Virus record (IMG/VR): IMGVR_UViG_3300009008_002419
Location: 1 to 64,000 of that record
DNA from: a virus
Strand: one strand, 5' to 3'
Length of the DNA: 64,000 bases
The position numbers were made by a program, and so were the translations under genes. Positions 3,178 through 59,824 of the stretch are shown here, one piece after another; the first letter of the stretch is position 1; each line of letters opens with the position of its first letter. A model generated the notes under the pieces. The model did not search any database and was not told the DNA's origin. It was given only the letters and a program-made list of their open reading frames with translations.

Positions 3178-3192
3178 GGTATAAGAATTATG
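3178..3192 (+). promoter_or_regulatory. GGTATAAG-class promoter motif
   Basis: GGTATAAGAATTATG, identical to 3685-3699, directly before a GAGGAGG RBS. Confidence 0.65.
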
Positions 3193-3203: not shown

Positions 3204-3398
3204 ATGGCACGTAAACACAAAAAGGAAAAGTGTCGCCTTATCGATTCACTCGTCAACCAAAACCCTCGAGAGCCCAAAGCTCCTCAGGAGTATGCTGAAG
3301 ACACAAATCGGCACGGCATCTTGAGGATCACTACGATCAAGCCCAAACGTAAGCCCACATCCAAACAGAGCCCGAAACAGCAAGGGAGTAAAGTATGA
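3204..3398 (+). CDS. Small basic hypothetical protein
   Basis: Strong GAGGAGGT RBS. Confidence 0.65.
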   Translation: MARKHKKEKCRLIDSLVNQNPREPKAPQEYAEDTNRHGILRITTIKPKRKPTSKQSPKQQGSKV

Positions 3399-3710: not shown

Positions 3711-3896
3711 ATGGCCCAATTAACGGATGACAAACGCAAACAGGCGGAAAAACAACTTCTCGCTCTCCGAGCTGAAGTCAAGCGAGTTACTAGCGTTGCC
3801 AAAACATTCGAAGAGCTCGCGTCCAAGAAGCGCAAACAAGTCGAAGATCTTAAGGAAGACATTCGCGGTCTTCAGGAGATGCTTCGCAACAAATAG
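3711..3896 (+). CDS. Small coiled-coil protein
   Basis: GGAGGTGG RBS; heptad pattern. Confidence 0.7.
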   Translation: MAQLTDDKRKQAEKQLLALRAEVKRVTSVAKTFEELASKKRKQVEDLKEDIRGLQEMLRNK

Positions 3897-3913
3897 GAAC
3901 CTCCGGGTTCCTT
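3895..3913 (+). terminator. Hairpin, possible terminator
   Basis: AGGAACC-TCCG-GGTTCCT followed by TAGCTTAAAA; weak U tract. Confidence 0.45.
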
Positions 3914-12414: not shown

Positions 12415-13509
12415 ATGGGCGTACTATCGGTTCCTAAAAAATCTTTGTCCAAATCAGTATTTACTGACACACAGAAGATACATCCTAATGTACGTGAGTT
12501 TATACTTAAGCAGTTAGATAGCGTTGTCCCTAAACAAGCTATAAATGAAATATTTGTAATGGGATCAATTACAGGGTTTAAGTATGATTTAGATTCTGAT
12601 ATTGACGTGTCTGTTTACGTTACGCCCACTACTGAGATTGATTCACAGGCATACGCTAACTTCTTGCACGCGGTTGCGCGCAGGCAAGTCAATGGTATAG
12701 TGCCCACCAACACGACACACCCAATTAATTTTTACATTAAAAATTATCATGAAAACGCCCGAGCTATGTATGAGTCAGCGGATTTTGGCGTCTATGATCT
12801 AATTGCAGACAAGTGGCTGCGCGAACCAACGGTACCACTCAATGTCCGTGATCCAAAAGAACAATTTCCGCTTGAACTTATGATTGCTAAAGCATACGAA
12901 GATCGGTTTGCTAAGGCAGTATCTAAAGAAGATATAAATCGTATTGTTCAGATGACTCGTAGTATTAAGCAAGACCGTGAGTTTGCATACGGCTATAGCT
13001 GGGGTGTGCCAAGACACAGTTTCAAGAACATCTTATATAAGACCTTTGAGAAAGGGCCCTATCATAATGTATTTGAAGAAGCTAAAAATCTTGAGCGCGC
13101 ACAACGTAAAAAGAAAGAACACACACGTGAGAAGCAAGCTGCCTCATTAAAAGATTATTCTAATTATTATAAAGATGTAATTGATCATAAGAAAAAAGTG
13201 TATAAAGCGGGACGACAACTTCATGCTCCCCGAATTCAATTACTAATGCATGATTGGGATAAACTTGTTCACCCTAAAATGGTAAAGCATTATACTAATT
13301 TCTTTTTTGCTAAAGAAAGAAGTCCTGAGACTATAAAAGGATTTATCCAAGCAGCTGAGGGTCATAAACGTAGACAAGCACACCATTTACGACCTTTAAC
13401 AAGCACTCCTAAAAATGTAAGAAAAGAAATTCTTGCAGATTGGTATGCTTCTCAAACCCGAACAGAGCCTAATCTCACTCTAAGTGAATTTATAGGTAGA
13501 ATGCGCTAA
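12415..13509 (+). CDS. Pol-beta-family nucleotidyltransferase fused to an HD-like domain
   Basis: MGSITG..SDIDVSV NTase motif; after EKQAA: HK..V, HDWDK, H....HH, EILADW (DUF5662-like). Confidence 0.75.
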   Translation: MGVLSVPKKSLSKSVFTDTQKIHPNVREFILKQLDSVVPKQAINEIFVMGSITGFKYDLDSDIDVSVYVTPTTEIDSQAYANFLHAVARRQVNGIVPTNTTHPINFYIKNYHENARAMYESADFGVYDLIADKWLREPTVPLNVRDPKEQFPLELMIAKAYEDRFAKAVSKEDINRIVQMTRSIKQDREFAYGYSWGVPRHSFKNILYKTFEKGPYHNVFEEAKNLERAQRKKKEHTREKQAASLKDYSNYYKDVIDHKKKVYKAGRQLHAPRIQLLMHDWDKLVHPKMVKHYTNFFFAKERSPETIKGFIQAAEGHKRRQAHHLRPLTSTPKNVRKEILADWYASQTRTEPNLTLSEFIGRMR

Positions 13510-29495: not shown

Positions 29496-30176
29496 ATGGC
29501 TCAAAAAACTTTAGATCAGTGGAATTTTAAGGAAGAAGCTGTCCAGGACCTTGGTTCTGTTGATAACTTAGTATCTTCCGAATCTATTGTTGTATTAGCT
29601 GGTCCTCCTGTGTTGGATATGTCGACAGTACAGTCTACACTGATTCCAATTGGACTAGTAGAAAATGCAACAGTAACACAGAATAAACAGATGCAGCAAT
29701 TATGGGAAATTGGTTCTCGTAAACCTTTCTTTGTTCCCGGAAGAACCTTTATTCAGGCAGGACTCACACGAGTTATGTTTGATGGTCAGTCTTTATTAAA
29801 GGCTATGTACCAAATGAGTGATCTTCTTGGTGGAGAGGATGGAAGCGGCTGGCCCGCTTCTGCTGATATGGACGAAATTCCTGGATGGCCTTATGACCCG
29901 GATGAAGAAGACCCTTCCGCTCGCGGTGAGTTCTTCATTAACCTGGCGTCTCAGTTCTTTAACTATCCTTTAGGACTTGGTTTCGTAATCAAGGATCAGG
30001 AGGAAGAGAACTATGGTGGGTTCTATCTGGAAGAGTGTTATATTCAGAATCACCAATTCACTGTACAAGCTAATCAAACTGTTGTTCTTGAAAATTCAGG
30101 CTTAAGAGCTTCGAAGATTGTTCCGATCGAATTAGATACTAAGATTGGTTTAAAAACTTACGGCGGATCTCTATAA
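29496..30176 (+). CDS. Tail tube protein
   Basis: Follows sheath; IGLVEN, QLWEIGS, FVPG, YLEECYI. Confidence 0.8.
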   Translation: MAQKTLDQWNFKEEAVQDLGSVDNLVSSESIVVLAGPPVLDMSTVQSTLIPIGLVENATVTQNKQMQQLWEIGSRKPFFVPGRTFIQAGLTRVMFDGQSLLKAMYQMSDLLGGEDGSGWPASADMDEIPGWPYDPDEEDPSARGEFFINLASQFFNYPLGLGFVIKDQEEENYGGFYLEECYIQNHQFTVQANQTVVLENSGLRASKIVPIELDTKIGLKTYGGSL

Positions 30177-30206
30177 TTTAAGCTAGAAAGAATTTATTTA
30201 AGAATT

Positions 30207-30238
30207 AGCCCACCCTAGTACTCCTAGGGTGGGCTTTT
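30207..30238. terminator. Terminator hairpin at the convergence of the two arms
   Basis: Perfect 12-bp stem AGCCCACCCTAG-TACTC-CTAGGGTGGGCT then TTT. Confidence 0.85.
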
Positions 30239-30241
30239 CAT

Positions 30242-30344
30242 TGGTGAGGCAGCAGAGAGGCTTCATTACGGCCCAGGATGCTGCAACATCCCGCCGAGGG
30301 CACGGGCTATTAACTCCGTACGTAAGTCAGCATCATACTACCTC
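30242..30344 (-). ncRNA. Candidate 103-nt structured RNA with acceptor-like stem and 3'-ACCA
   Basis: GAGGUAGUA pairs with UGCUGCCUC followed by ACCA; inner helix and two hairpins; promoter motif 6 nt upstream, terminator downstream. Confidence 0.65.
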
Positions 30345-30358
30345 AAGATTCTTATACC
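30345..30358 (-). promoter_or_regulatory. GGTATAAG-class promoter motif
   Basis: GGTATAAG-AATCTT then G at the first base of the stem. Confidence 0.65.
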
Positions 30359-30675
30359 TAAAAAGTATCAGGTTTTCCCCATTTGTCTTCGAGCAATAAT
30401 AGTGTTATTACTGCGTAATTTGCCAAGTCTTCGAGAGTGTCAATAATTTTTTCATCTGGGATGGCAGGGCGATTTTCATCCCATAGCAAAGTCTTAAGTC
30501 TAGAGACTTTGTCCCAAATTCTAACGTAACACCCTTTTGCACCCAGTGCCCCGATGTTGTCAGCTCCATAATCATGGTTTTTAGATTTAGCTAATTTATA
30601 TAGTGCAATTAACTCTGTTTCAAAGTGACCTAGAGTTTCATCAACATCTTTTTCTATTAAATTTAGTGTACCCAA
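30358..30675 (-). CDS. DUF1599-like nucleotide-modification-associated protein
   Basis: KNHDYG, RIWDKVSRL, DTLEDLANY. Confidence 0.75.
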   Translation of the reverse strand: MGTLNLIEKDVDETLGHFETELIALYKLAKSKNHDYGADNIGALGAKGCYVRIWDKVSRLKTLLWDENRPAIPDEKIIDTLEDLANYAVITLLLLEDKWGKPDTF

Positions 30676-32432
30676 TGGTGGTCTATTTCCGGTTTAACTT
30701 CCATTTTAATGTCAGGCGCAAAGTGATTAAACGCCTTGACCATTTCTTCTTGAACTATTTGTGCTGCTTGCTCAGCATGATCTTTATGTACTTCAACTAA
30801 TATTTCGTCATGAACTACATTAACCAAATATGCATCAAGTTTTACTTCTTTAAGTGCGTCATAAACTTTGTAGAGTGCGAGTTTAGTAATACTTGCACCT
30901 GCTCCTTGGAAAGGAAAGTTTTTTGCAATATTTTCTGCATGACGCCTACTTTTTCCATTATCAAAATCAAGATTTGATAAATCTTCTCGCCTGTGGTCTA
31001 ATGGACTATAGGCATAATTTTTACTTAGGGCCTCTGCAGCAAACGACTTCATCAACGCTTTAATGCGTGGGAAATTTCGGAAGTAGTTGTACTGTAACTG
31101 CTTTGCTTCCTTAAATGGAATGTTTAATTGATTAGCTAATTTGCCTGGCCCCATTCCATACATATTCCCGAAAGTAATACTTTTGGCAGCGCCTCGTTGC
31201 ACCTTAGTTACTTCTTCATACGGGACATCAAATACTAAACTAGCTGACATACTGTGTAAGTCTTTCCTCTCTTCTAACCACTTTAAGAATTTTGGCTCTC
31301 TACTTAGGTGGATAAGCAGTCGTAATTCTTGGTTAGAAAAATCAGCTGATATAATACGATAATCTTTATTCTTGGCTGTAAAGGCAGCTCTATAAACTGC
31401 CTCACCTGGGATATTTTGGAGATTGGGTTTGTCACTAGAATAGCGCCCAGTCTCAGTTCCACCTAATTGCCAGAATGAAGAGTGTAGTCTATTAGAAGGA
31501 GTTTTTAGATGTTGATTTAAAAATTCTTCGCCATAAGTAGACACAAGTTTGGCTTGGCTGCGATAATTTAATAGAGCTGTAATTGCAGGGTGTTTAATAT
31601 TTTTTAGTACAGGTTCAGATGTACCTTTAAGATCATCTTTACCTGTTAACTTTTTTAGAACTGGTAATAGTTGTTTTGGAGAGTTAAGATTAAGAGTAAC
31701 TACCCCAAACATATCAGTTTCACAGTAAGGCTTTAGATGCCCATCTAGTTCGGCTTTGTACTCATCAACCTTTTTCTGTGCGACAACTTTTAGGGCCTTC
31801 CATTTTTCAGTGTCAACATGAATACCGTTTAGCTCTAAAGCTGAGGTGGCTCTGACTGTGTTATACTCTAATTGAGCTAAATTATACATATCACGTTCTT
31901 TTAATAATGTTGTCAGGTGCGTGAATAGTGGTATTAAATGTTCAGTGTCTTCTCTTGCATATTCTAATTGTTCCTCAGTAAAAGGATCTCCTAATTTCAT
32001 ACCTGCAAAAGAGCTTTGCTCTTCTTTGCTTATAGAGACCCCAATATACTTATCTAGCACAACATCTAAGCTATGTTTGTTCTGTCTCTTACCTTGTGAG
32101 AGGAGTAAATCTGCTAGCATGGTATCTGCTAAAGGGTTTATTTCTACTCCAAAGTTTGTAAGGGTCATTTGAAAATCATACTTAGAATTATGCATGATTT
32201 TAACAATGTCTTCAGAATTTAATTTCTCTAAAATAAGCTTTATTAATTCAGGACCTAATTTAAAGACATCTAATACAAATTGTTTATGCGCATTGCCAAT
32301 TTGTATTAATAAAACTTTGTCGGTTAATGGATCTAGTCCAGTAGCCTCTACATCATACGCTAATAGCGACTGATTTTTAATAAAGCTAAGTACTTCTTTA
32401 AGTTGTTCTTTTGTTGTAATGTAATAATCCAT
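30663..32432 (-). CDS. polA: DNA polymerase family A with 3'-5' exonuclease
   Basis: Exo YDVEATG, HNSKYD, YAREDT; TGRYSS..PNLQNIP, DFSNQELR, R..AK...FG..YG, VHDE. Confidence 0.95.
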   Translation of the reverse strand: MDYYITTKEQLKEVLSFIKNQSLLAYDVEATGLDPLTDKVLLIQIGNAHKQFVLDVFKLGPELIKLILEKLNSEDIVKIMHNSKYDFQMTLTNFGVEINPLADTMLADLLLSQGKRQNKHSLDVVLDKYIGVSISKEEQSSFAGMKLGDPFTEEQLEYAREDTEHLIPLFTHLTTLLKERDMYNLAQLEYNTVRATSALELNGIHVDTEKWKALKVVAQKKVDEYKAELDGHLKPYCETDMFGVVTLNLNSPKQLLPVLKKLTGKDDLKGTSEPVLKNIKHPAITALLNYRSQAKLVSTYGEEFLNQHLKTPSNRLHSSFWQLGGTETGRYSSDKPNLQNIPGEAVYRAAFTAKNKDYRIISADFSNQELRLLIHLSREPKFLKWLEERKDLHSMSASLVFDVPYEEVTKVQRGAAKSITFGNMYGMGPGKLANQLNIPFKEAKQLQYNYFRNFPRIKALMKSFAAEALSKNYAYSPLDHRREDLSNLDFDNGKSRRHAENIAKNFPFQGAGASITKLALYKVYDALKEVKLDAYLVNVVHDEILVEVHKDHAEQAAQIVQEEMVKAFNHFAPDIKMEVKPEIDHHWVH

Positions 32433-33247
32433 TAATCGTCTTCTATATGCATTTCTAGGCGTGAAGCCCGATGTTTTTTCTGTAATTTCTCAATTACAGC
32501 TTTCTTTATTTGTCGTATTCGTTCTCTAGTTAATCCTAAATCAATCCCGATTTCTTCTAATGTGTGTCCTCGCATTTCACCAATTCCGAAATACATTTTA
32601 ATTATTTCTTGCTCACGTTCTGTGAACTCACTTAGAACATCGTCTATATCTTTTGATAGGTATTGATCTTCAAGATCTTTAGATGGTGGTGCATCATCAC
32701 TAGGCATTATTTCATGAATAGTTTTATTAGTTTGTTCATGGGGTTTATCTATATCCACATAAGTAAATAATAAGTTATCCAGTGTGTCATAAATGCCGTG
32801 CTTACTTAATTCTTGGTACAATTCTTCAATTGTAGGCGGTCGTCCCACATCCTGCTCAAGCTCAACTTTTATCTTGTTGATTTTTCCAACAAGTGAAATT
32901 TTATTAGCAGGTAATCTTATTAATCGGGACAGTTCATGAATACAATTGATTATTGATTGTCTAATCCACCAGACTGCGTAAGTTATGAATTTAATGTTGC
33001 GATCTATATCAAAGTTTTCATAAGCCTTCATTAATCCATAATTGCCTTCACCAATTAAGTCTTCTAAAGGTATGCCTTGTCCTTGGTATTGTTTTGCAAT
33101 ACTAACCACAAATCGTAAATTGGAACGAATTATCTTTTCTTTTGCTCGTTCGTTACCAGCCTTTGCTTTCACAAAGAGCAAATGTTCCTCTTCTTTAGAT
33201 AGTGGAGGAATATCTTTTATTGTTTCAAAATAGTGTGTTAGGGACAT
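32432..33247 (-). CDS. RpoD/RpoS-family RNA polymerase sigma factor
   Basis: NLRFVVSIAK, DLIGEGN.GL, FITYAVWWIRQ, TLEEIG..LGLTRERIRQI; lacks region 1.1. Confidence 0.95.
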   Translation of the reverse strand: MSLTHYFETIKDIPPLSKEEEHLLFVKAKAGNERAKEKIIRSNLRFVVSIAKQYQGQGIPLEDLIGEGNYGLMKAYENFDIDRNIKFITYAVWWIRQSIINCIHELSRLIRLPANKISLVGKINKIKVELEQDVGRPPTIEELYQELSKHGIYDTLDNLLFTYVDIDKPHEQTNKTIHEIMPSDDAPPSKDLEDQYLSKDIDDVLSEFTEREQEIIKMYFGIGEMRGHTLEEIGIDLGLTRERIRQIKKAVIEKLQKKHRASRLEMHIEDD

Positions 33248-33610: not shown

Positions 33611-34225
33611 TTAAAATTTAAATGACCACGACGGTAAGTTCCGGTCACCACGTAACCAATTTAATAGCAACTGTGCTGCTATTGTGGCTATAATTCTATT
33701 TCCTAATTGGATACGATTTTCATTAAGTTCCCATTCTAACTGGCAACTTCCTCCATCTTCTGGATTATCTAAATTTAGTGTTTTTAACATTGCTTCGCAA
33801 GTATTTTTTTCGTGTTTTGTGAAAAAAGATACCATGGTGCTTTCAGATCTTAAATCAATCCAGTATGGATCTGTGTCTGCAATTGGATCAGAAATAAGAG
33901 TTTCAAATAGAAGCTGCCTAAAGGCTGTATTATCTACAGCACTCACAACGCAGTCATAACCCGTTATCTCTTTTGCAGTTGTAATCCTTTTTACCATTGG
34001 AGTAAACAAATAGCGAATATTCAAGGATTCCGCTTTTTGTTCTAAAATGTCTTCTTCTGTGAAGTTTTGGTAAGAAAGATTTTTGGTTTCTACGGTGTCA
34101 TCATCAGCAAAAACAAATTCACATCCCGGAAATTGTCCATGCTTTTGTAATTGAAATAAATGTTGGGCAAGCCAACTACCAATACCACCAGCACCTACGA
34201 TTAATATGTCTCTATTATTCGCCAT
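33611..34225 (-). CDS. ThiF/E1-like adenylating enzyme
   Basis: VGAGGIG, D.D.VE.KNL..Q, KAE, SAVDN..FR, candidate catalytic GSC. Confidence 0.9.
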   Translation of the reverse strand: MANNRDILIVGAGGIGSWLAQHLFQLQKHGQFPGCEFVFADDDTVETKNLSYQNFTEEDILEQKAESLNIRYLFTPMVKRITTAKEITGYDCVVSAVDNTAFRQLLFETLISDPIADTDPYWIDLRSESTMVSFFTKHEKNTCEAMLKTLNLDNPEDGGSCQLEWELNENRIQLGNRIIATIAAQLLLNWLRGDRNLPSWSFKF

Positions 34226-34670
34226 TTAGTACACGTACCTCAGTAATGTGTTCCCACTCTCGGTTGTCTTCATCTCCGTCCCAATAGTAGAAAGCTAGGT
34301 TATTAAATTTTGGTGAATAGATGATGTAAATTCCTTTATATCCAGCTCCGTTATGATCTGTCATAGACGGGATTGGTAGATTATTTGGATGTGTATGAAA
34401 GATGCCTATAAAGTCTTTATCCGCTGATTTCTTCACTAATCTGGTGTCTTTAATGATTTGAAAGAATTCAGTCGGATCAGGCATATAATGAACAACAGCC
34501 ATATCACCAGGAGTGATATTAGTTGTTGGTGTAAACTCTTTAATCTCCCATTCATCGCCTTGTTGGCCAGTAAGCACTCCACAGACTTCTACTGTGGAGT
34601 GCTCATCGCCATAATCTGCAAGTTGCTGTAATAAAGAATTCTCTACAGCTACTTTCATTCTAACCCCCAA
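34215..34670 (-). CDS. JAB/MPN+ (JAMM) metalloprotease
   Basis: EVCGVL and FHTHP......SMTD (HxHx7Sx2D). Confidence 0.92.
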   Translation of the reverse strand: MGVRMKVAVENSLLQQLADYGDEHSTVEVCGVLTGQQGDEWEIKEFTPTTNITPGDMAVVHYMPDPTEFFQIIKDTRLVKKSADKDFIGIFHTHPNNLPIPSMTDHNGAGYKGIYIIYSPKFNNLAFYYWDGDEDNREWEHITEVRVLNGE

Positions 34671-37581: not shown

Positions 37582-37618
37582 TTTGTTCCTAATAAATAAT
37601 ATTATTTTAAAATAAAAT

Positions 37619-37660
37619 AAACCCAACACAAGCCTGAAGAGGGACACCTGTGTTGGGTTT
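37619..37660. terminator. Inverted repeat with U tracts, terminator or attenuator
   Basis: AAACCCAACACA...TGTGTTGGGTTT perfect 12-bp arms. Confidence 0.7.
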
Positions 37661-37682
37661 TATTTTGAGACGATTTGTCTTC

Positions 37683-37697
37683 TATGTTCTTATACCA
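37683..37697 (-). promoter_or_regulatory. GGTATAAG-class promoter motif
   Basis: TGGTATAAG-AACATA-G just after the RNR stop. Confidence 0.6.
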
Positions 37698-37706
37698 AAA
37701 TTTTAA

Positions 37707-40700
37707 TTATTCTATTGTGCAGGTATCTCCATCACAATACTTTTCACCTTCTGCTTCTGAGCTTATATTAGTAAAATCTATTGGTTTTACCTTTTTAACT
37801 ACTTCGTTATAAGCTTCTTCTGAAATTGCCTCATAGGGTGCTTGCTCATAGCCATGCTCTGCTAAAGGTAGAAATGATACACTTTTCAAACGATCTTCAT
37901 ATAACTCTAAAGCGTTCTGTATATCGTTGGCTTCATTTTCTTTAAATGTAACAGTAACGCTTACTGAATTATCAGACCAGTATTGCTGGTATTTAGCGGC
38001 ATTTTCTAGTTGTTCCCATATTGATACATCATATTTAGATTTTTCAAAATACTTTTCTTTAACAGGAAATTCCACCACTTTTGTTGATCTTCCCGAGTCA
38101 TAGACATCATTCTCAACTTTGTACCCTGCTTTTTCTATTGCTGGAAGTAAAGGATCATTTACAGAAAAGCGGATGCGTCTTATATAAAATTCGGCTTCAG
38201 GATAATGAATTCCTGGGGTAGCTTGTGGCAACAAGCTCACGGAACCACTAGGTTTAACTGTAGTTGTTTTAATACTCTTAGGAATTGCTAACCAGTCAGA
38301 GAATTTCTTATCTAATTCTTGAATATAATTATAACCGTCGTTAGCCCATTGCAACATCGTTCGTCTACCGTGTTTATTGAAAGATTGAATAATACCACTT
38401 TGGCTTAATCCAATACGTCTGTTTTTAAGCATTCTAGCGTTTGTTTCTGGCCAATGGGTGTTTACTAAGGTAACACTCTTTCCGTACAGATATGCGAGTT
38501 TCAGGGTGTGTTTAAAGTCAGCATACGTATCATGTCTATGTGGGAAGGTTTCAACTAAATTGCAAAGTTCGCGATCTTCAAGGGTCTGTTCTCCACAATT
38601 CAAGTTATTGAAATATAACCACTTACGCTTATTATTTCTAGTTTTACCTTCAAAACCACCAATAAAAAAATTATGGAATTCATCTACAGTTCCATTGTAC
38701 ACAACGTCATTACCAACCAATTCGACAGAAACCACTCTGTGATTAAATGTTTCTGCTGCTTCTCTCAAAGATTTCCAGGAAGTAAATGGACTGCTCTTTC
38801 GACTAATTTCTGCACTAACTCCAAATTTTTTACAGGCAGTCTGCCATTCACTTTTTTGTGGAATACGCTTTAGATTAAACTTTAATTCTGTAAATATTTT
38901 AAGCTGTTTTAACCTAAGCTTTTCTCGTTTTTTGTCGTATGTGACTTTCATACCTTTTTTGCGATGTTCAATATGCTGTAAATTTATATTGCTTTGTTTT
39001 ATACTACAAAATTGGCACTGACTTTGCTCTCTTCGTTTGTACTCTAATATTAATCTTTTACTGCATTTTTCACAATTTTTAATGATCTTTACGTGACCAT
39101 CTATGATCTTGCAATTATATCCTTCATTAATCCATTTTTTGTAAGTTCGTACAGTACGTGGATCTAGGTTTGACATGTCTTCAAAATTACATTTTACTGC
39201 AGCCCATTTAGATAGTCCAAGAACTCCTCCTAAATGATCATTCCGCCATTTAGAAAATTGCTCAGGCAGATTGTTGGATTTTGCATATTCTTTCCACTCG
39301 TTGTTAGAAAATCGCCTCTCAATTTTTTTAGTAAGTTTTAATGCGTGCTGTTGTAACTCTTCATTAGTAACACCTGAGTAATTAGAGTTCTTTTCCCCAC
39401 TGCTATTGACAGAGTGCTTTTCTTTGTACCTTGCCCATTTCTCTTCAGACCATTCTGTTTGCGCTCGACGCATAGGATTACTATTTCCTTGCATTGCAAT
39501 TCCGTGTAATTTGTCATGATCTTTTTTTGTCATAATTTCAAGATTTAAAGGTCTATTATCTTCTGTATTAAAATTCTTATGATGAACAACGCACCCTTTT
39601 TTTATTTTAGTATTACTATAGAATTCTGCTATTAGCCTGTGTTCACAATTACTTACAACTCCAGGAGTATTTAACCAAAAATAATTTGCGTTAGGATTAT
39701 TTATTGGTGCTGCGACTTTAGTAGTAACCTTTAAACTATCTCCAACTTTAAGGTTCCTAGTTTCAATATAGTTTCCATCAGTGGTTAAGAACTTATGATT
39801 CTCTGTTACCTTAAGTGTGTTTCCATCATCCAAAGTTATTTTGTAAATAGGTTCGTTTTCTCCAGTAATTCGTGGATTACGCATAGTGCGTATGACTATT
39901 TTTCCTTTGGCATCAAAACAAAATACAGGAACATCTTTACCTTCTTCAGTCAATGTTTTAATTGATACATTACCTCTTCCATCAGCGGTATAAACTAAAG
40001 TATCTCCCGTAATACAAGGGTTTACACCCATACAATAACTGTCATCGTTTAGTTCTCCCATACGTCCATACTTACGAGCATTTTCTAACCACACATACCC
40101 AGGCTCACCTTGTTTAATAGTGTTAGCAACACATTGAGAATAATCCATTCCTACAGTCGCTGAAACAGAGTTATTTGAAGCATATCTATTAAATAAAAGT
40201 TTTTCTTGATCATGTTTTAATTCTAAATATTCGGTATCTAATGGATCACCAAGTGCTAATGAAGCTGAACGTCGTATGTTTCCAGCAATTACACATTTTG
40301 AAATATAAGTTTCAATATCAACAATATCACTCGAAGTTAAAAGTTCGTCTATACGTGAATTGAGTAATGTTTTGATATTTTGATGTAAATCTATTAAAGG
40401 TTGTGGACCACTTGCAGTTCCCCCAAAACCTTTAATAGGTTCTCCGAACGGTCTAATTTTTGAATAGTCAAATTTAGGTATTGACGTTCCTGTAAAATAA
40501 CCATTTAACACTAATCCTACTGACTCTACCCAACCTTCTCTGGAATCTGGAATTTCAAATACTAATCCATTCGTTTCTTTCGGCTCTTTTATTTTTAATT
40601 TATTTGCTCCTAAGGTATCAAACCCTACACCAACTCCTAACATTAAAGCATCGGTTATAAATTCAAAAATTTCACTGCCTCGTTCATTAATCTGTTCTGT

Positions 40701-41084
40701 AGAAGCAAATGCACAATTTAGAAGTCCAGCCCCAGAACGTCCAGTTACATAATCTGTGCCCATCATCCAAAGATTTCTTCCACTTGGAAGAAATTTAAAA
40801 TTCCAGATAGCATCGTACATTGCTTGGGCTGTTCGTTGTGACCTTGGATTATCCCAACGTAACCCATTTTTTGCTACATGTTCTTTTTGAATATTGAATA
40901 CGCCCTCGACTACACGTTTTACTGTTTCCCAGAACTCTTCTGTGGTACCATCTTCTTTACGTCTTGCGTAAGTTCGTTTATAAACTATATAACCAAGCGG
41001 ACCCCATTCAGGTTGCTTATTTTTATAGTTTTCAAGAAACTGATCAGACAGGTAAAATCGTCTATGTGTTGTCGGTTGAACCAA
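37707..41084 (-). CDS. nrdJ: Class II (B12-dependent) monomeric ribonucleoside-triphosphate reductase with intein
   Basis: YKRTYAR, PSGRNLW, NC, GVGVGFD, NP-intein-CGEQ, CNLVE, TVKPSG, C-terminal YCDGDTC. Confidence 0.93.
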   Translation of the reverse strand: MVQPTTHRRFYLSDQFLENYKNKQPEWGPLGYIVYKRTYARRKEDGTTEEFWETVKRVVEGVFNIQKEHVAKNGLRWDNPRSQRTAQAMYDAIWNFKFLPSGRNLWMMGTDYVTGRSGAGLLNCAFASTEQINERGSEIFEFITDALMLGVGVGFDTLGANKLKIKEPKETNGLVFEIPDSREGWVESVGLVLNGYFTGTSIPKFDYSKIRPFGEPIKGFGGTASGPQPLIDLHQNIKTLLNSRIDELLTSSDIVDIETYISKCVIAGNIRRSASLALGDPLDTEYLELKHDQEKLLFNRYASNNSVSATVGMDYSQCVANTIKQGEPGYVWLENARKYGRMGELNDDSYCMGVNPCITGDTLVYTADGRGNVSIKTLTEEGKDVPVFCFDAKGKIVIRTMRNPRITGENEPIYKITLDDGNTLKVTENHKFLTTDGNYIETRNLKVGDSLKVTTKVAAPINNPNANYFWLNTPGVVSNCEHRLIAEFYSNTKIKKGCVVHHKNFNTEDNRPLNLEIMTKKDHDKLHGIAMQGNSNPMRRAQTEWSEEKWARYKEKHSVNSSGEKNSNYSGVTNEELQQHALKLTKKIERRFSNNEWKEYAKSNNLPEQFSKWRNDHLGGVLGLSKWAAVKCNFEDMSNLDPRTVRTYKKWINEGYNCKIIDGHVKIIKNCEKCSKRLILEYKRREQSQCQFCSIKQSNINLQHIEHRKKGMKVTYDKKREKLRLKQLKIFTELKFNLKRIPQKSEWQTACKKFGVSAEISRKSSPFTSWKSLREAAETFNHRVVSVELVGNDVVYNGTVDEFHNFFIGGFEGKTRNNKRKWLYFNNLNCGEQTLEDRELCNLVETFPHRHDTYADFKHTLKLAYLYGKSVTLVNTHWPETNARMLKNRRIGLSQSGIIQSFNKHGRRTMLQWANDGYNYIQELDKKFSDWLAIPKSIKTTTVKPSGSVSLLPQATPGIHYPEAEFYIRRIRFSVNDPLLPAIEKAGYKVENDVYDSGRSTKVVEFPVKEKYFEKSKYDVSIWEQLENAAKYQQYWSDNSVSVTVTFKENEANDIQNALELYEDRLKSVSFLPLAEHGYEQAPYEAISEEAYNEVVKKVKPIDFTNISSEAEGEKYCDGDTCTIE
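38598..40016 (-). mobile_element. Intein (473 aa) with HNH endonuclease in the RNR active-site NPCxE motif
   Basis: CITGDTLV start, block B VTENHKF, EHR..VHHKNFN..DNR..NL, VYNGTVDEFHNF, ends NNLN before C. Confidence 0.92.
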
Positions 41085-54105: not shown

Positions 54106-54421
54106 CTAAATTGTTATGCATAACAACTAATTTGTCTAATTTTCTTAACAGTTTTAAATTAGGACAATCAACAATAGTAATGGGTTTGCTTTGTCGTACT
54201 GCATATGTGATAAGTTGGTCTAACATATAGTGTTCCACAACATCAGGCCCAGGTACTATTTTAATTTCTTTCCCTTCGTCAGCTAATAATAGGCAATCAT
54301 CGTGAGCATGATATGCTCGTTTTCCTCGCCCAAGTTCTTTATAAGTCTTTGTTATTTTAGTGTCTTTTTCAAATGCAATTTCGAATACAGTAGCCTTATC
54401 ACTTGTGATTAATTTAATTAT
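54095..54421 (-). CDS. 108-aa hypothetical protein with probable non-canonical ATA/ATT start
   Basis: Stop-free frame fills the gap exactly; AGGTGG upstream; not in ORF track. Confidence 0.5.
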   Translation of the reverse strand: MIKLITSDKATVFEIAFEKDTKITKTYKELGRGKRAYHAHDDCLLLADEGKEIKIVPGPDVVEHYMLDQLITYAVRQSKPITIVDCPNLKLLRKLDKLVVMHNNLVDN

Positions 54422-55227
54422 TCTATTACCACCTTTGTGGGGCTATCTGGTTTCGCTATAACGAATTTATCGGTATAGTCAGGAAATTCTTGCTCAATTT
54501 TACTTTGTACAAGCTCAGGACTGTTTGTGTTTTTACTTAAATGTCCAAAGATAATCTTTTGTACTTTGTCTAAATCAATGTTATTTTTTACAAACTCAAT
54601 TGCCTGATTAGAGCTTAAATGCCCAGTTGCGCTTTTTATTCGTTCTTTCAACTCAATTGAATAATCAGCGTTCTTTTCAATCTCGTCTTCATCGTAGTCA
54701 GCCTCAATAAAATAGGCATCGCAGTCTTGCAATGCCTCTCTTATCACAGGAGTAATCATTCCTGTATCTGTTAAGTAGCCAAACTTTGGTCCCTTGGGGT
54801 ATTGTTCAATAACAAAGCCTAAACTATATTCTGAATCATGTTTAGTGCTAAATGAAGTTACAGTCAAGTCGTGGCCAATCGCATACTTAGTCCCAGGTTT
54901 TTGCATCAGAAAAGTTTTCGATTCTTGAACTCGCGGTAGCTTTTCTTTTTTAGCCTCATATACTTTTTCATGTATATAAACCATTGGATGCTGTCTTTCA
55001 GAATATTGAGCACAAATGACATCTAAACCTTTAATATGGTCACTATGCCCATGTGTAATAAATATTGCGTCGGGAATATTAGTACCATGTCTAAGAGAGA
55101 CTGACTCTTTGAACTCATTAAATTTTCTAACTCCTATTCCTGCATCAATAATAAGGTTTGTCGTTTCAGTAGTAATTTGAGTGCTATTACCTGAACTACT
55201 GCTTACCATAAAATTTAAGACCATCAT
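54418..55227 (-). CDS. Metallo-beta-lactamase-fold nuclease (YycJ-like)
   Basis: SSSGN, IDAG, THGHSDH, TDTG, GHLS. Confidence 0.88.
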   Translation of the reverse strand: MMVLNFMVSSSSGNSTQITTETTNLIIDAGIGVRKFNEFKESVSLRHGTNIPDAIFITHGHSDHIKGLDVICAQYSERQHPMVYIHEKVYEAKKEKLPRVQESKTFLMQKPGTKYAIGHDLTVTSFSTKHDSEYSLGFVIEQYPKGPKFGYLTDTGMITPVIREALQDCDAYFIEADYDEDEIEKNADYSIELKERIKSATGHLSSNQAIEFVKNNIDLDKVQKIIFGHLSKNTNSPELVQSKIEQEFPDYTDKFVIAKPDSPTKVVIE

Positions 55228-57971
55228 TAAGTAATAATACCTGCTTTGAATACCATCACTTTTACGCTTTGTTTATTAAGCTTTCGTGATACTTGTTTAT
55301 CATGCAAGATTAGCCCCTTTTTATGTAAATCTTGTACAATGGCTCCAAGAGAGTGAGCAAGTTCGCCACTTAGTTTTTTATAAATGTAACTATAAGCTTT
55401 TTGCCCAATAATACAAACTTCATCTTCCATTTTAGCGTTGGTCAATCTCCACCCAATAATAGGAGTTCGTTCAGTATCTAAGAAAGTTTTATTATCGTCT
55501 TGCAATCTAATTTCGTTAGTTGCTATACCTTCTTGAAGTGTACTTAAGAATATTTCAGAAGCCATCTCTTCTGCAGATTCATTGACTTGTTCTTTAGTTT
55601 TAGTAACCAAGAAAGTTTTAAATTTGTTTTGATTTTTTACCGCGTCCGCTTCTTTCCACAAATATTCGCTAATTACTTTATAGCTTGCCATCATTAAAGC
55701 GACGTTTCGAGATATTCTAGCATCATTAGGATTGCCTTTTACATGCTCATGAAACTCTGTTTCATAAGCTTCAAACGAATCGCTGATTTTGTTTGGGTCT
55801 AAGCCCAATACATGTTGAATGTATCTTGCAGTAAACCCAGGAAATAAATGCTGGATTTTTTCAATAGCTTTACCTTTAACTCTGTCTTTAAATCGTGGGT
55901 GACAGTCTACAAGTATAGTTCGTGCTAATGTTGATGCTTCTCCACCTGGAGTATCCTCACCTGTGGATGCTAGAAATCCTGAGATTGTTTTAGTCTTTTG
56001 CATCTTAAGATCAGAGCGTGATCTTGCACGAGAGGTGTTGTCAGCGTAGTTCTGCATGAGTGTGATAGCGTAATCGTAACTCGAGTTTTTACCGCCAAAA
56101 TTTCTAAGTTTAAAGTCATCAATGATATACAAAGCGTCTTTAAATAAGTAACCTACGTTATGAAGAGCTGTTGCAGTCGAAGTCCAAGACATTAGGTTTG
56201 TAAATGTTCCATAGAAGTTCTGGAAGAACTTCATAATATAAGACTTACCATCGCCCGATCTACCTCGAACAAAGTAAGAGTATTTTGTCCGCTCACCTTT
56301 AATAAACGGAAAAATAATAGGTAAGAATGTGTGAGCTAAAGCAGAATGTGTGTAATTATAGTTACTAAGATCTAAAAGATTTATTAGCCCTTCCTTAGCA
56401 GTGTTAAACTCTTCGTCAGTCGGGTTCATAAGATCTAAACCTTCGGCAAGATCTTCTCCTGTTAAGTCATATTCCATTGTTTCATTATCAAAGATTCCAT
56501 CTTTAGTAATAATTACAGAGGGCATACAATATCTATTAGGATAAAGATCCTCTTCTTTATCTTTATAATAACCAATAACTTGAGTAATTTCTCTGCGTTC
56601 AGTATCAGCAAATTTATTCACACAATGACGAATTTTATCCAAATCTTTATGTATAAATATACCATCAATTCCAATAGCATTTGCTATCATTACTTTAAAA
56701 CCTTCAGTATTAAAATAACGATCAACTCCTACTTGGAATTCTGCTGAACGCTCTGGACCTGTTATAATTCCATTAAAAAATTTGTGAGTATTAATGCCAT
56801 CATCAATAATGATTTCTTCATTGATATCAATAGTGAAATTAGTTAGTTGTCCATATAACGGTTCATTCTTAGCAGGATCTGCATTTGGGAAAAACTCATA
56901 GTACCCGCCATCGAGCATTCTATAGTTTTCAAGCGGGTCAGCTAAGATCTCAGCAAGATCTCCAGTATCTCCCAGAGCTTTTTTATAGAATACAATTGGA
57001 CTGTTCCAACTACCAATGTTCCGACACTGTGCTGGACATATACCTTGTTCTTGTAACTTACTACAACGAATAGGTTTATAGCCTTTTCCATTAATAGCAG
57101 TCTTCATTTTTTCAATGTGATAGTTACTAGTGTCAGGATTATAATACTCTAATTGTGGTAAGAGTATCTCTCTAAGATAGCGTTCTCCTTCATCTTCTCC
57201 ATGATTGTGAGAAGCATTAATCAAAATATAACCTAAAGCTAAAAGTTCATCATTAGTTAATTTTTTTTCTTTAAATAATTTGTCTTTAATAGCTTGCAGG
57301 GCTACACATTTTTTAAAAATATTTTCAACAGGGCTAGTTGCATTCTTGAAAGAATCTTCTGTGGCATACTGAACTTCATCAAAATCATTGATATTAGTAA
57401 ATACGCTAAATTTGCCACTAGTTAAATGTTTACCATTAGGCCCTTTAACTAAGTTTCCAGAACTTCCTTTTTCAACCCTTGCTTGTTTAGGAAATAACTC
57501 TAAGTGAATATTCCCAATCTCTTTTATGCCTTCCATCATTTCACGAAGGCCATTATATACAATTTCAGAGCTTACAGGCTCTTTGAAGAATACCCAAACA
57601 TGATATCCCTTATAACCAGAAAACTCCGTATAATGAGGGATTCCTTTTTCTTTAAAAATATCTTCAACATAACCTGTTTGCTCTTGCAGTTTAGGGAGCC
57701 AATCATCCAAATTAAAGTTGGGCGCAGTGTACACTGGTTTATCTAAGTCAATGTCTACTACAGCCCACTTTAATGTATTCTGTTCTGGAATGATTTGATA
57801 GAGTCCAATAGTTTGTTCACCGTTTAGATGCTTCTGAATTATATCATCGGTAAGGTGTTGCTCTGTTGGAATATGTGCACGATTTGGTAATTGAACCGTG
57901 TAATTATCGTCACGATGGACAAAAAGTTCCCTAAACTTTGTTGTATTCATTTGATTCTTATCTCTTCCCAT
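55227..57971 (-). CDS. AEP-type primase fused to P-loop helicase
   Basis: DID.D, SG.KGYH, Cys cluster C....GICP..C, Walker A GRSGDGKS, IIDDF. Confidence 0.82.
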   Translation of the reverse strand: MGRDKNQMNTTKFRELFVHRDDNYTVQLPNRAHIPTEQHLTDDIIQKHLNGEQTIGLYQIIPEQNTLKWAVVDIDLDKPVYTAPNFNLDDWLPKLQEQTGYVEDIFKEKGIPHYTEFSGYKGYHVWVFFKEPVSSEIVYNGLREMMEGIKEIGNIHLELFPKQARVEKGSSGNLVKGPNGKHLTSGKFSVFTNINDFDEVQYATEDSFKNATSPVENIFKKCVALQAIKDKLFKEKKLTNDELLALGYILINASHNHGEDEGERYLREILLPQLEYYNPDTSNYHIEKMKTAINGKGYKPIRCSKLQEQGICPAQCRNIGSWNSPIVFYKKALGDTGDLAEILADPLENYRMLDGGYYEFFPNADPAKNEPLYGQLTNFTIDINEEIIIDDGINTHKFFNGIITGPERSAEFQVGVDRYFNTEGFKVMIANAIGIDGIFIHKDLDKIRHCVNKFADTERREITQVIGYYKDKEEDLYPNRYCMPSVIITKDGIFDNETMEYDLTGEDLAEGLDLMNPTDEEFNTAKEGLINLLDLSNYNYTHSALAHTFLPIIFPFIKGERTKYSYFVRGRSGDGKSYIMKFFQNFYGTFTNLMSWTSTATALHNVGYLFKDALYIIDDFKLRNFGGKNSSYDYAITLMQNYADNTSRARSRSDLKMQKTKTISGFLASTGEDTPGGEASTLARTILVDCHPRFKDRVKGKAIEKIQHLFPGFTARYIQHVLGLDPNKISDSFEAYETEFHEHVKGNPNDARISRNVALMMASYKVISEYLWKEADAVKNQNKFKTFLVTKTKEQVNESAEEMASEIFLSTLQEGIATNEIRLQDDNKTFLDTERTPIIGWRLTNAKMEDEVCIIGQKAYSYIYKKLSGELAHSLGAIVQDLHKKGLILHDKQVSRKLNKQSVKVMVFKAGIIT

Positions 57972-58348: not shown

Positions 58349-59824
58349 TTAAGTCCTTAGTTTCTTATCACAAACGAAATTACAAAAAACTCCACACTTT
58401 AGTTTCCCGTTTTCAAAAGAATCTGATCGATTTTCTTGAACTTGTATTTGAGTACTAAAGAAATGAGGTGCACCTAAAGGACAATTAATTTTGATTGCAT
58501 TCTTAATTGTTCTTTTTAAATTTTGTGCTTTGTTGTTTATATTGTCATAAAGAATTTTATTCTTTAAAAAATGCTTTACATAAACAAGTGCATTCTCTGG
58601 ATCGTCTGTATGGTTATCAATAATTTTAATTATATCTTTGTCAGTGATATTTAATTTGAAATCTTCTGGGGATATTTTTTCTAGCTGTTTATTTACTCTC
58701 TTACGTAAAAATTCAACTTTCTCCATACTAATGTTTGCCCGCCCTGTACCATATCTATCTGCGATACGCAGATCTAATAAATTATGTATATTGTCGGGCC
58801 CAGCTTTATTAATGAGCTTTCTAACACTTAAGTCAGAGATTTTCTTTGACGCATCAAAAAGATGAAGGGATACTAAAGAACTTATTTTTTTAATAAAATC
58901 TTTTTTGAATCCCCATCTAAATAAAATACGTTCAGTGAGAAAAGCTCCTGCTTTCTCATGCCCATAAAAATGTAACTCATCATTAATATTAGTTTGGCAC
59001 TGAGGTTTACCAATATCATGTAAAAGAGCGGCTGCTCTGATTATTTTACAACGCGGGTGCGACAGTTTAACAGAGTCAAGCGCATACATAATATGTTGAA
59101 AGAGATCTAGATTTTTACGTTTATTTGATTGTGGTATGCCTGTGCATAATGCGAGTTCTGGAAAAAAATCATCTAGAATTTTTGCAGAGCGTAGAATATT
59201 AAAAACTTTAGAAGGAGTTTCAATCCGTGTAAAGATTTTAAGCATTTCTCTATTGATTTGAGCAGAATGTGCTAAGACCAGTTTAAATCGGTAATCTTTT
59301 ATAGCCTCATTAGTTTTTGTTTCTAATGACCAGCCCGTACCTAGTAAACCAGCTAATACAGGCGCACGTAAGATACGGACTTTTGATTCTAAGATCTTTT
59401 TATAAGGATCTCCGATAAATTTTATTGTCTTGTTTTCTAAATCCTTTTCACCATCAAAAAAATCATACCACTGATCATTTAGTGGATCGTAGTATAATGC
59501 ATTGATTGTGAAATCTCTTGACTCGGCATCCTCTTTTAGTGATGCTGTATATTCAAATTTGTAATAAGTATTTTCGAGCCAAACTCTTTTCATAGGATAC
59601 AATGTAAAGTCTGTATCCATGTATCTAATTGTAACTGAAGTAGAAAAAGGATCAATATTGATAATTTTATCCTTGAAGCTTTTCTGTAATTCAGTTAATG
59701 TGGCTTTTACAGATATGTCATAATAACGGATTGTGTCTTTTAATTTTAAATCTCTTGCTGTTCCCCCACAGATGTAAGCTGTGTATCCGTGAGATTTTAA
59801 GAATTTGATAATACTTTTAACCAT
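58349..59824 (-). CDS. CCA-adding/poly(A) polymerase-family protein with HD domain
   Basis: GG..RD, RDFTINA, RILRA; HD domain LLHDIGK, GHE, AD. Confidence 0.85.
   Translation of the reverse strand: MVKSIIKFLKSHGYTAYICGGTARDLKLKDTIRYYDISVKATLTELQKSFKDKIINIDPFSTSVTIRYMDTDFTLYPMKRVWLENTYYKFEYTASLKEDAESRDFTINALYYDPLNDQWYDFFDGEKDLENKTIKFIGDPYKKILESKVRILRAPVLAGLLGTGWSLETKTNEAIKDYRFKLVLAHSAQINREMLKIFTRIETPSKVFNILRSAKILDDFFPELALCTGIPQSNKRKNLDLFQHIMYALDSVKLSHPRCKIIRAAALLHDIGKPQCQTNINDELHFYGHEKAGAFLTERILFRWGFKKDFIKKISSLVSLHLFDASKKISDLSVRKLINKAGPDNIHNLLDLRIADRYGTGRANISMEKVEFLRKRVNKQLEKISPEDFKLNITDKDIIKIIDNHTDDPENALVYVKHFLKNKILYDNINNKAQNLKRTIKNAIKINCPLGAPHFFSTQIQVQENRSDSFENGKLKCGVFCNFVCDKKLRT

What the first reader, a model, noticed from the sequence alone, without database searches (positions are those of the whole stretch)
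30242..30358. Self-contained 103-nt RNA gene with tRNA-like acceptor end (ACCA-3') but no cloverleaf
Seen on the - strand: GGTATAAG, a 6-nt spacer, then GAGGUAGUA...UGCUGCCUC-ACCA, then the terminator. Inside are GCU/AGC and UUACG/CGUAA helices leading to two hairpins (UACGG..CCGUG; GGGAUGU..GCAUCCU). The predicted +1 coincides with the first paired base and the stem ends exactly at NCCA. There is no T-loop or D-loop consensus. Inference: a tRNA mimic, for example a decoy for anticodon nucleases or tRNA-sensing defences, or a substrate of the phage CCA/HD enzyme.
Basis: partly seen in the sequence, partly recalled or inferred. Interest (0 to 1): 0.75.

Follow-up and report, generated by a model that had tools for sequence, protein, structure and literature searches.

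The report
Orphan phage small-RNA gene, not tRNA-like
A large uncultured marine phage carries a compact promoter-to-terminator unit that should make one very stably folded RNA of about 100-150 bases, but nothing testable makes it a tRNA mimic; no relative with the element could be found, so its function stays open.

Summary
The sequence features are as described. GGTATAAG, a 6-nt spacer, a 103-nt stretch (30344 to 30242, minus strand) closed by a 9-bp stem, then ACCA, then a hairpin terminator.

The fold is strong and strand-specific: -42.2 kcal/mol, z -3.1, against -27.4 on the plus strand. With its terminator it is the most stable 103-nt window of the 93.8-kb record. GC is 56% against about 36%.

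The promoter call is the best-supported part. GGTATAAGAA is a lineage-wide box: 39 sites in four related phages, with a purine at the predicted +1 in 39 of 39. In a relative it also heads a tRNA-Tyr gene and a GOLLD RNA.

The tRNA-mimic reading is not supported. ARAGORN and Rfam find nothing, and there is no T or D arm. The paired axis is far longer than an acceptor/T minihelix. ACCA lies 6 nt before the terminator hairpin, so it is a 3' end only if the RNA is processed.

Three syntenic relatives (polymerase 39-51% identical) lack the element. A covariance model and seven collection scans found no homologue, so covariation could not be tested.

Best reading: an orphan, independently transcribed structured small RNA of unknown function. 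The scan had flagged this same stretch in an overlapping window (e1-5964151).

The parts
30349..30364 (-). Promoter: A/T-only stretch followed by the box GGTATAAGAA (30358-30349). The box overlaps the TAG stop of the DUF1599 gene.
   Evidence: The 11-mer GGTATAAGAAT is identical at 3178(+), 3685(+) and 30358(-). The box has 6, 25, 6 and 2 copies in G000-G003, against 0-2 for the reversed control. An alignment of 39 sites shows A/T only at -20..-15 and T at -1 in 29 of 39.
30344..30344 (-). Predicted transcription start (G), which is also the first base of stem P1.
   Evidence: The position 7 nt after TATAAG is a purine in 39 of 39 sites, 21 G and 18 A. This is inferred and has not been mapped.
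30242..30344 (-). The 103-nt three-way-junction RNA domain: a long irregular closing helix (P1, GA/UC, GCU/AGC, a tandem G-A loop, UUAC/GUAA), hairpin A, a CCUC linker and hairpin B. It ends in ACCA.
   Evidence: Fold of -42.2 kcal/mol with z -3.14. It is a genome-wide outlier. The fold is strand-specific. Unpaired stretches are no longer than 6 nt.
30310..30336 (-). Mini-ORF AUG AUG CUG ACU UAC GUA CGG AGU UAA (MMLTYVRS), behind the SD-like GAGGU at +1.
   Evidence: Read from the sequence. The two sister promoters have the same box, SD and ATG layout but lead into ORFs of about 62-64 codons.
30207..30241 (-). Linker AUGAAA plus a 12-bp GC-rich bidirectional terminator hairpin.
   Evidence: Terminator scan. 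The 149-nt fold keeps both domains intact.
30176..30192 (-). Conserved terminator tail UUCUUUCUAGCUUAAAU, shared with the orthologous terminators of relatives.
   Evidence: Alignment A4. The hairpin plus UUUUAGCUUAAAA motif recurs in G000 and G002.
30358..30675 (-). Upstream DUF1599 gene, the last gene of the DNA polymerase operon (polymerase at 30663-32432).
   Evidence: Pfam PF07659 at E 1.2e-06, and DNA_pol_A at 1e-88. The C-terminus and stop position are conserved in relatives.

Best explanation
This is a self-contained, lineage-restricted small-RNA transcription unit. A phage-type promoter (A/T tract plus GGTATAAGAA, with no -35) starts transcription at G30344. The RNA folds at once into a compact three-way-junction domain of 103 nt. 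Transcription ends at the hairpin at 30235-30207 or at its conserved tail, giving a primary transcript of roughly 145-165 nt in which ACCA is internal. The product is a stable, almost fully base-paired non-coding RNA.

Only stretches of 6 nt or fewer are unpaired, and no extended complement exists in the phage genome. It therefore most likely acts through its folded shape, as a protein-binding or decoy RNA, rather than as a long-seed antisense regulator.

Shown: the sequence, the fold statistics, the strand bias, the promoter class, absence from the databases, and absence from three syntenic relatives. Inferred: that it is transcribed, where its ends lie, and how it acts.
For: - **Promoter.** The box is enriched and strand-coherent in four related phages. 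Flanking signals that were not used to select the sites (A/T at -20..-15, T at -1, purine at +1 in 39 of 39) are all met at this site.
- **Promoter class drives stable RNAs.** In relatives the same box heads a tRNA-Tyr gene, tRNA-Pro/Glu genes and a GOLLD RNA. Among 39 units, the ORF-less ones are the most structured, and this one is the most stable of all.
- **Fold.** z is -3.14. The region is the top window of the genome. The minus strand is favoured by 14.8 kcal/mol through six G-U pairs. GC is 0.56 in a genome of about 0.36.
- **No usable ORF.** The longest frame behind the SD is 8 codons. The 56-aa plus-strand frame has no relative among 5.8 billion proteins.
- **Inserted cassette.** L003 and L004 go straight from the DUF1599 stop to the terminator. 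L005 has no gap at the same module junction.
Against: Only a single sequence is available, so there is no covariation and no conservation evidence at all. No expression data could be obtained.

Absence from relatives at 39-51% polymerase identity means the element is young or dispensable.

The 5' end looks like the mRNA leaders of the two sister promoters, with SD at +1 and ATG 4-7 nt later. The unit could therefore be a decayed small-gene cassette.

The minus-strand U-tract is weak.

A z of -3 and a high GC content can also arise in foreign or recently inserted DNA that has no RNA function.
Confidence: 0.5

Rival explanations
1. Vestigial or mini-ORF cassette. The unit is a copy of the phage's promoter, SD and ATG cassette, as at 3178 and 3685, whose coding part was lost or reduced to 8 codons. 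The structure is incidental or merely stabilises a short mRNA.
For: The identical 11-mer box is followed by GAGG(U/A)-type SD and ATG at the same spacing as two real small genes. GGTAGGT-type SDs are used by G002 genes behind the same box. Relatives lack the element.
Against: A remnant should not be the most stable fold of the genome or show a 14.8 kcal/mol strand bias. The SD is locked in the 9-bp P1 stem. The 70 nt after the double stop would be unexplained.
Confidence: 0.17
2. Anti-Shine-Dalgarno regulator. The RNA displays CCUC motifs that pair with GAGG or GGAGG ribosome-binding sites of phage or host messages and damp their translation.
For: CCUC occurs 3 times in 103 nt against 0.44 expected (P about 0.006). 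The copy at 46-49 sits unpaired in the junction, with unpaired probability 0.88. Phage leaders use GAGG/GGAGG. Earlier notes of this scan report anti-SD small RNAs behind GGTATAAG promoters in other large phages; these are leads only.
Against: The exposed motif is only 4-5 nt long, and it is in a junction rather than a hairpin loop. The other two copies are paired (unpaired probability 0.32 and 0.0). The hairpin loops (AAU/UUAAUAG and UGCA) are not C-rich. No extended complement was found in the genome.
Confidence: 0.1
3. 3' UTR element of the polymerase-DUF1599 operon. The structure is made by read-through and protects the operon's 3' end or strengthens termination. The promoter-like word is fortuitous.
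For: The element lies directly between the stop codon and the terminator of the operon. The fold persists in the read-through context.
Against: Orthologous operons manage with the terminator alone. The site meets every independent promoter signal, including +1 at the first paired base.
Confidence: 0.1
4. tRNA acceptor mimic. The RNA is trimmed to ...CUC-ACCA-3'. It then serves as a decoy for tRNA-directed nucleases or sensors, or as a substrate of the phage CCA/HD nucleotidyltransferase.
For: A 7-9 bp stem is followed by ACCA, with U8 after seven pairs. The phage encodes a PolyA_pol+HD enzyme and an MBL-fold protein with weak RNase Z similarity. The loop of hairpin A, UUAAUAG, fits the Y-U-NNN-R-N pattern by eye. 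A relative carries a genuine tRNA-like RNA holding only a tmRNA tRNA-like domain.
Against: ARAGORN finds nothing, even at permissive settings where it returns only implausible calls with 100-nt introns. Rfam tRNA, tmRNA and tRNA-like models give no hit at E<=10. There is no T arm, no GG in a D loop, and no elbow. The helix length does not fit the 12-bp minihelix. ACCA is not a transcript end without an unproven cleavage. Similarity of hairpin A to a tRNA-Leu anticodon arm is within the shuffle range.
Confidence: 0.07
5. Replication-origin primer transcript. A promoter next to the polymerase gene at the junction of the two gene arms makes a GC-rich RNA that primes DNA synthesis through an R-loop.
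For: The unit is placed beside the replication genes, at the turning point of the cumulative GC skew.
Against: The skew simply follows gene orientation. The 181-bp gap holds no iterons or AT-rich unwinding element. Relatives lack the unit at the same junction.
Confidence: 0.03

Closest known systems
Phage-encoded structured RNAs of unknown function near tRNA islands (GOLLD RF02032, ROOL)
   Same: Both are non-coding, highly structured and phage-borne. In relative G002 a GOLLD RNA is headed by the same promoter, identical over 14 nt (GGTATAAGAATCTT). GOLLD and ROOL are described as phage RNAs of unknown function near tRNA islands (bioRxiv 10.1101/2024.12.08.627333).
   Different: This element is eight times smaller. 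It has no sequence or model similarity to GOLLD. It is not beside tRNA genes in the part of the genome that is held.
tRNA and tmRNA tRNA-like domains
   Same: A stem formed by the 5' and 3' ends is followed by ACCA.
   Different: There is no cloverleaf, no T arm and no D loop, and no model hit. The genuine tRNA-like RNA of relative G002 (L121:10636-10717) passes the tmRNA gathering score, has a T arm and has G3:U70. This element has none of these.
C-rich anti-SD small RNAs (RsaE/RoxS of Bacillota, CcsR/'cuckoo' RNAs of Alphaproteobacteria)
   Same: It is a promoter-to-terminator small RNA with repeated CCUC motifs, one of them single-stranded.
   Different: Those RNAs show longer C-rich motifs in hairpin loops (from my own knowledge). 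Here the loops are not C-rich and the exposed motif is 4-5 nt long, in a junction.
Short promoter-proximal terminated transcripts of phages (lambda PR' 6S RNA, OOP RNA)
   Same: A strong phage promoter is followed within 100-200 nt by a terminator. The same phage has a second such unit at 37696-37610, which is conserved in G002.
   Different: Those units sit upstream of genes that antitermination switches on, or lie antisense to a gene (from my own knowledge). Here nothing lies downstream on the same strand except the antisense of a convergent virion gene.
phi29 packaging RNA (pRNA)
   Same: It is about 120 nt, with a three-way junction, two hairpins and a helix closing the 5' and 3' ends.
   Different: There is no Rfam hit. 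This phage has a gpA-type large terminase. The resemblance is recalled from memory and concerns shape only.

Membership tests
tRNA (Rfam RF00005 / ARAGORN) | Cloverleaf with a 7-bp acceptor stem, D arm, anticodon arm and T arm (GTTCRANYC loop). | tested here: not met
   ARAGORN finds 0 genes in the window and in the whole record. Permissive settings give only calls with 103-139-nt 'introns'. Rfam gives no tRNA hit at E<=10 on 301 nt.
tRNA-like acceptor mimic | A mature 3' end at NCCA directly after the acceptor helix. | not testable with these tools
   ACCA is present, but it lies 6 nt before the terminator hairpin.
tRNA-like acceptor mimic | A coaxial acceptor/T minihelix of about 12 bp ending in a T-loop elbow. 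| tested here: not met
   The predicted axis runs P1 9 bp, then 2, 3 and 4 bp with internal loops, before a three-way junction. The 17 nt before the 3' strand cannot form a T arm.
tmRNA / tRNA-like domain (RF00023) | An acceptor with G3:U70, a T arm, and a match to the tmRNA model. | tested here: not met
   There is no hit. Pair 3-97 is G-C. For comparison, a relative's 82-nt RNA scores 51.3 bits against a gathering score of 47.
GOLLD RNA (RF02032) | A match to the conserved 3' domain. | tested here: not met
   There is no hit in the window or the rest of the record at E<=0.1. Local alignment to the G002 GOLLD is no better than shuffles beyond the promoter.
Y RNA / YrlA | A Ro-binding helix plus a linked Ro (TROVE) gene. 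| tested here: not met
   There is no Rfam hit. No TROVE or RtcB gene is in the 93.8-kb record. The record is a fragment, so absence of the genes is weak evidence.
Small self-cleaving ribozymes (hammerhead, twister, pistol, hatchet, HDV-like) | A match to the family models or to the conserved core. | tested here: not met
   There is no Rfam hit at E<=10. The junction has only 4 unpaired nt (CCUC), which does not fit the hammerhead core.
Anti-SD small RNA (RsaE/CcsR-like) | C-rich anti-SD motifs exposed in hairpin loops and complementary to target ribosome-binding sites. | tested here: inconclusive
   CCUC is enriched and one copy is unpaired, but in a junction. The loops are AAU and UGCA. No extended target was found in the phage.
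Conserved RNA family (any) | Homologues with compensatory base changes. | tested here: inconclusive
   Covariance model R1 found only the element itself in the window, the rest of G000, 130 fetched loci and the whole records G001-G003. Six pattern scans of viral contigs and one of genome contigs gave only chance matches. The one close relative known from its polymerase (P0002, 77%) could not be fetched.

The most novel reading that the evidence does not exclude
The RNA is cut after ACCA, or repaired there by the phage's own PolyA_pol+HD nucleotidyltransferase. It then works as a new kind of minimal acceptor-end mimic, one without a cloverleaf, that titrates a host tRNA-3'-end-sensing or tRNA-cleaving defence. 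A second possibility is that it founds a new class of small phage RNAs that self-associate through its two palindromic loop sequences (UGCA and UUAA), in the manner of the larger phage RNA cages.
Probability: 0.07. Interest if true: 0.7.

Novelty: new member of a known kind. Interest (0 to 1): 0.3.

Why it matters
If the RNA is real, it adds one more unexplained stable RNA to a little-known group of large marine phages. These phages use their own GGTATAAGAA promoter class and, in relatives, carry tRNA arrays, a GOLLD RNA and an RNA holding only a tmRNA tRNA-like domain.

The firmest and most reusable result is the promoter definition, with its invariant +1 purine. It allows transcription units, including non-coding ones, to be predicted across this lineage.

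The element itself is a single-copy orphan with no conservation evidence, so by itself it answers no open question. It would become interesting only if transcript mapping showed a processed CCA end, or if a binding partner were found.

Tried and rejected
The contigs encoding the identical polymerase (4 contigs, longest 116 kb) and the 77% relative P0002 could therefore not be fetched.
There are no expression or end data.

**Searches for relatives**
- A viral-contig search with P0002 found only matches at 24-35% identity.
- GenBank phages hold no DNA match to the region, and polymerase identity there is at most 33%.

**Searches for the RNA itself**
- Six pattern scans of viral contigs gave nothing useful. 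They used promoter plus 5' end, internal-loop strands plus ACCA, hairpin A, hairpin B, and both P1 strands plus ACCA. Results were no matches, 31 chance matches, or 3 copies of an unrelated coding repeat. None was matched by model R1.
- A genome-contig scan with hairpin B gave 3 chance matches.
- The 56-aa plus-strand frame over the element has no protein relative.

**Readings considered and dropped**
- Hammerhead: CUGA and GAA flank P2, but the topology is wrong.
- Riboswitch: no downstream gene lies on the same strand.
- attP copy of a tRNA 3' end: there is no T-arm sequence.
- MITE: the element is single-copy.
- 6S-like or pRNA-like RNA: there is no model hit.
- Degenerate tRNA-Leu: hairpin A resembles the anticodon arm of the G002 tRNA-Leu(UAA), but the score is within shuffles and no T arm exists.

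**Other corrections**
- The ORF at 12415-13509, noted earlier as an NTase-HD, matches only DUF5662 in Pfam and nothing in the PDB. The real PolyA_pol+HD enzyme is at 58349-59824.

Full report
**Setting.** The window is the first 64 kb of a 93.8-kb IMG/VR virus record that CheckV rates as about 31% complete. Earlier notes of this scan describe it as an uncultured marine phage. The finding lies in a 181-bp gap where two gene arms converge. On the plus strand the last virion-arm gene ends at 30176. On the minus strand a family A DNA polymerase (30663-32432) and a DUF1599 gene (30358-30675) end at 30358. A sigma-70-type factor gene lies just upstream of the polymerase, at 32432-33247.

**The observation.** GGTATAAG lies at 30358-30351 and overlaps the TAG stop of DUF1599. 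AATCTT follows, then GAGGUAGUA...UGCUGCCUC-ACCA at 30344-30242. Next come AUGAAA and a 12-bp GC-rich hairpin at 30235-30207.

RNAfold gives a three-way junction closed by a long irregular helix. P1 has 9 bp, followed by GA/UC, GCU/AGC, a symmetric GAC/UGA loop that can form tandem G-A pairs, and UUAC/GUAA. Two hairpins are joined by an unpaired CCUC. The energy is -42.2 kcal/mol, z is -3.14, and 1 of 200 shuffles folds as well.

Among 7,496 windows of 103 nt across the whole record, the region with its terminator is the most stable, and the element alone would rank about fourth. The plus strand of the same bases reaches only -27.4 kcal/mol, because six G-U pairs become C-A. Only 5 of 3,747 windows favour the minus strand as strongly. 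GC content is 0.56 against about 0.36 for the genome. The structure is therefore real, unusual and RNA-like on the minus strand.

**The promoter.** This turned out to be the strongest part of the finding.
- GGTATAAG occurs 9 times in the window against 2.1 expected.
- The 11-mer GGTATAAGAAT is identical at 3178(+), 3685(+) and 30358(-).
- The 10-mer GGTATAAGAA occurs 6, 2, 25 and 6 times in this phage and in three relatives found through the polymerase (G001-G003). The reversed control word occurs 0-2 times. The sites follow gene orientation.
- An alignment of 39 sites shows signals that were not used to select them. There is almost no G or C at -20..-15, T at -1 in 29 of 39, a purine at the position 7 nt after TATAAG in 39 of 39, and no -35.
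- The site at 30358 meets all of these signals, and its purine is G30344, the first base of P1.

The promoter class drives ordinary small genes with SD plus ATG. In relatives it also heads stable RNAs: a tRNA-Tyr gene and tRNA-Pro/Glu genes and a GOLLD RNA. Of the 39 units, those without an ORF are the most structured, and this one is the most stable of all. Relative G002 encodes a 2,040-residue protein with an RNA polymerase Rpb1 domain. Together with the sigma gene here, this fits earlier notes of this scan that the box is read by a phage-encoded polymerase. I did not test which polymerase reads it.

**What it is not.**
- ARAGORN finds no tRNA or tmRNA in the window or in the whole record. 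At permissive settings it returns only calls with 103-139-nt introns.
- Rfam 15 gives nothing at gathering thresholds. It gives nothing relevant at E<=10 on the 301 nt around the element; the single hit is to the terminator on the other strand. It gives nothing at E<=0.1 over the whole record.
- The 17 nt before the 3' strand of P1 cannot form a T arm.
- The would-be D region has no GG.
- The coaxial axis is much longer than the 12-bp acceptor/T minihelix.
- Hairpin A resembles the anticodon arm of the G002 tRNA-Leu(UAA), but the score is within the shuffle range.
- A genuine tRNA-like RNA exists in the lineage. It is an 82-nt RNA in G002 that passes the tmRNA gathering score while holding only the tRNA-like domain, with a T arm and G3:U70. 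It shows what a positive result looks like.

The ACCA is 6 nt upstream of the terminator hairpin. It is a 3' end only if an unproven cleavage occurs.

The phage does encode a PolyA_pol+HD nucleotidyltransferase (58349-59824). However, in G002 15 of 21 tRNA genes encode NCC without the final A, which gives that enzyme an ordinary job.

**Relatives.** No record in GenBank phages matches the region. The polymerase search found one 77% relative (P0002) and several near 50%.

Loci L003 and L004 (polymerase 50-51% identical) keep the order polymerase, DUF1599, terminator, convergent virion gene. They pass straight from the DUF1599 stop to the terminator hairpin. The flanks align, including the tail UUUUUUUAGCCUAAA, while about 150 nt are present only in the window. 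These 150 nt comprise the promoter, the RNA and its hairpin. L005 (39%) has no gap at the same junction. The unit is therefore an inserted cassette of this sub-lineage.

Covariance model R1, built from the single sequence and its fold, finds only the element itself. It was run on the window, the rest of the record, all fetched loci and the whole records G001-G003. Six pattern scans of IMG/VR and one of 185,579 genomes gave only chance matches.

**How it most likely works.** I read it as an independently transcribed, stable, structured non-coding RNA (confidence 0.5). Its primary transcript would run from 30344 to about 30200-30180.

In the ensemble only GAC, AAU, CCUC, UGCA, UGA and ACCAAU are unpaired. 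No complement longer than 11 nt exists in the phage genome. Action through shape, such as binding or titrating a protein, is therefore more likely than long antisense pairing. That step is inference.

The rivals, in order of weight:
- **Decayed or mini-ORF cassette (0.17).** The 5' end copies the layout of the sister promoters' mRNA leaders, with SD at +1 and ATG after it, and an 8-codon frame (MMLTYVRS) follows.
- **Anti-SD regulator (0.10).** CCUC occurs three times against 0.44 expected, and one copy is exposed. The motif is short, lies in a junction and is not in a loop.
- **3' UTR element of the polymerase operon (0.10).**
- **Origin primer RNA (0.03).**

**Novelty and score.** The element belongs to no described RNA family. 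With a single sequence, no covariation and no transcript, it cannot be called a new class. I file it as a new, orphan member of the known kind 'phage-encoded small structured RNA'. Interest is 0.3. The scan had already flagged this same stretch from an overlapping window (e1-5964151).

Noticed in passing
window 3178, 3685, 3949, 30358, 37696, 53945; G000 64334; loci L121-L133: GGTATAAGAA is a lineage-wide promoter box with 39 sites in four phages. Flanking signals are A/T only at -20..-15, T at -1, a purine at +1 in 39 of 39, and no -35. It heads small genes, tRNA genes and a GOLLD RNA.
   Followed up: yes
L122:10682-11530 (-), relative G002: A GOLLD RNA (Rfam RF02032, 121 bits, E 2.8e-33, below the gathering score of 150) sits about 430 nt downstream of a GGTATAAGAATCTT promoter. 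tRNA-Leu follows it, inside an array of 21 tRNA genes.
   Followed up: partly
L121:10636-10717 (-), relative G002: An 82-nt RNA passes the tmRNA gathering score (51.3 against 47) but holds only the tRNA-like domain. Its acceptor is GGGGGUG/CACCUCC with G3:U70, it has a T arm, and it lacks the mRNA-like part.
   Followed up: partly
L121 and L122 tRNA genes; window 58349-59824 (-): In G002, 15 of 21 tRNA genes encode NCC followed by T or G, and only 3 encode a full CCA. The window phage encodes a PolyA_pol + RNA-binding + HD nucleotidyltransferase that could add the missing A.
   Followed up: partly
window 37610-37696 (-); L125:700-793 (-): A promoter box is followed within about 75 nt by a small hairpin and a strong terminator (z -6.5), just upstream of the next gene. 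The same layout, with different sequence, is found in G002. This may be a promoter-proximal attenuator or a second small RNA.
   Followed up: partly
window about 34570-34610 (-): A perfect 15-bp hairpin lies inside the ORF at 34215-34670. It has the strongest GC-corrected fold in the genome (126 nt, -44.1 kcal/mol, z -5.6).
   Followed up: no
window 3912, 5238, 30176-30192 (-); L123 9270, 11825, 12515, 13620, 16061: Terminator hairpins are repeatedly followed by the tail UUUU-AGCUUAAAA. This may be a lineage-specific termination or processing signal.
   Followed up: partly
window 3204-3398 (+) and about 3712-3900 (+): Two small, GC-richer genes lie behind the identical 11-mer promoter, with SD at +1. 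The first encodes a Lys/Arg-rich protein.
   Followed up: no
window 37707-41084 (-): A class II (B12-type) ribonucleotide reductase is interrupted by an intein with an HNH endonuclease.
   Followed up: no
window 54418-57971 (-): An MBL-fold protein with weak RNase Z similarity (far below the cut-off) lies next to a 914-residue protein with an AEP-TOTE primase domain.
   Followed up: no
L004:7298-7572 (+), relative G002: The DUF1599 homologue after the polymerase appears to be broken by in-frame stops or a frameshift in this record.
   Followed up: no
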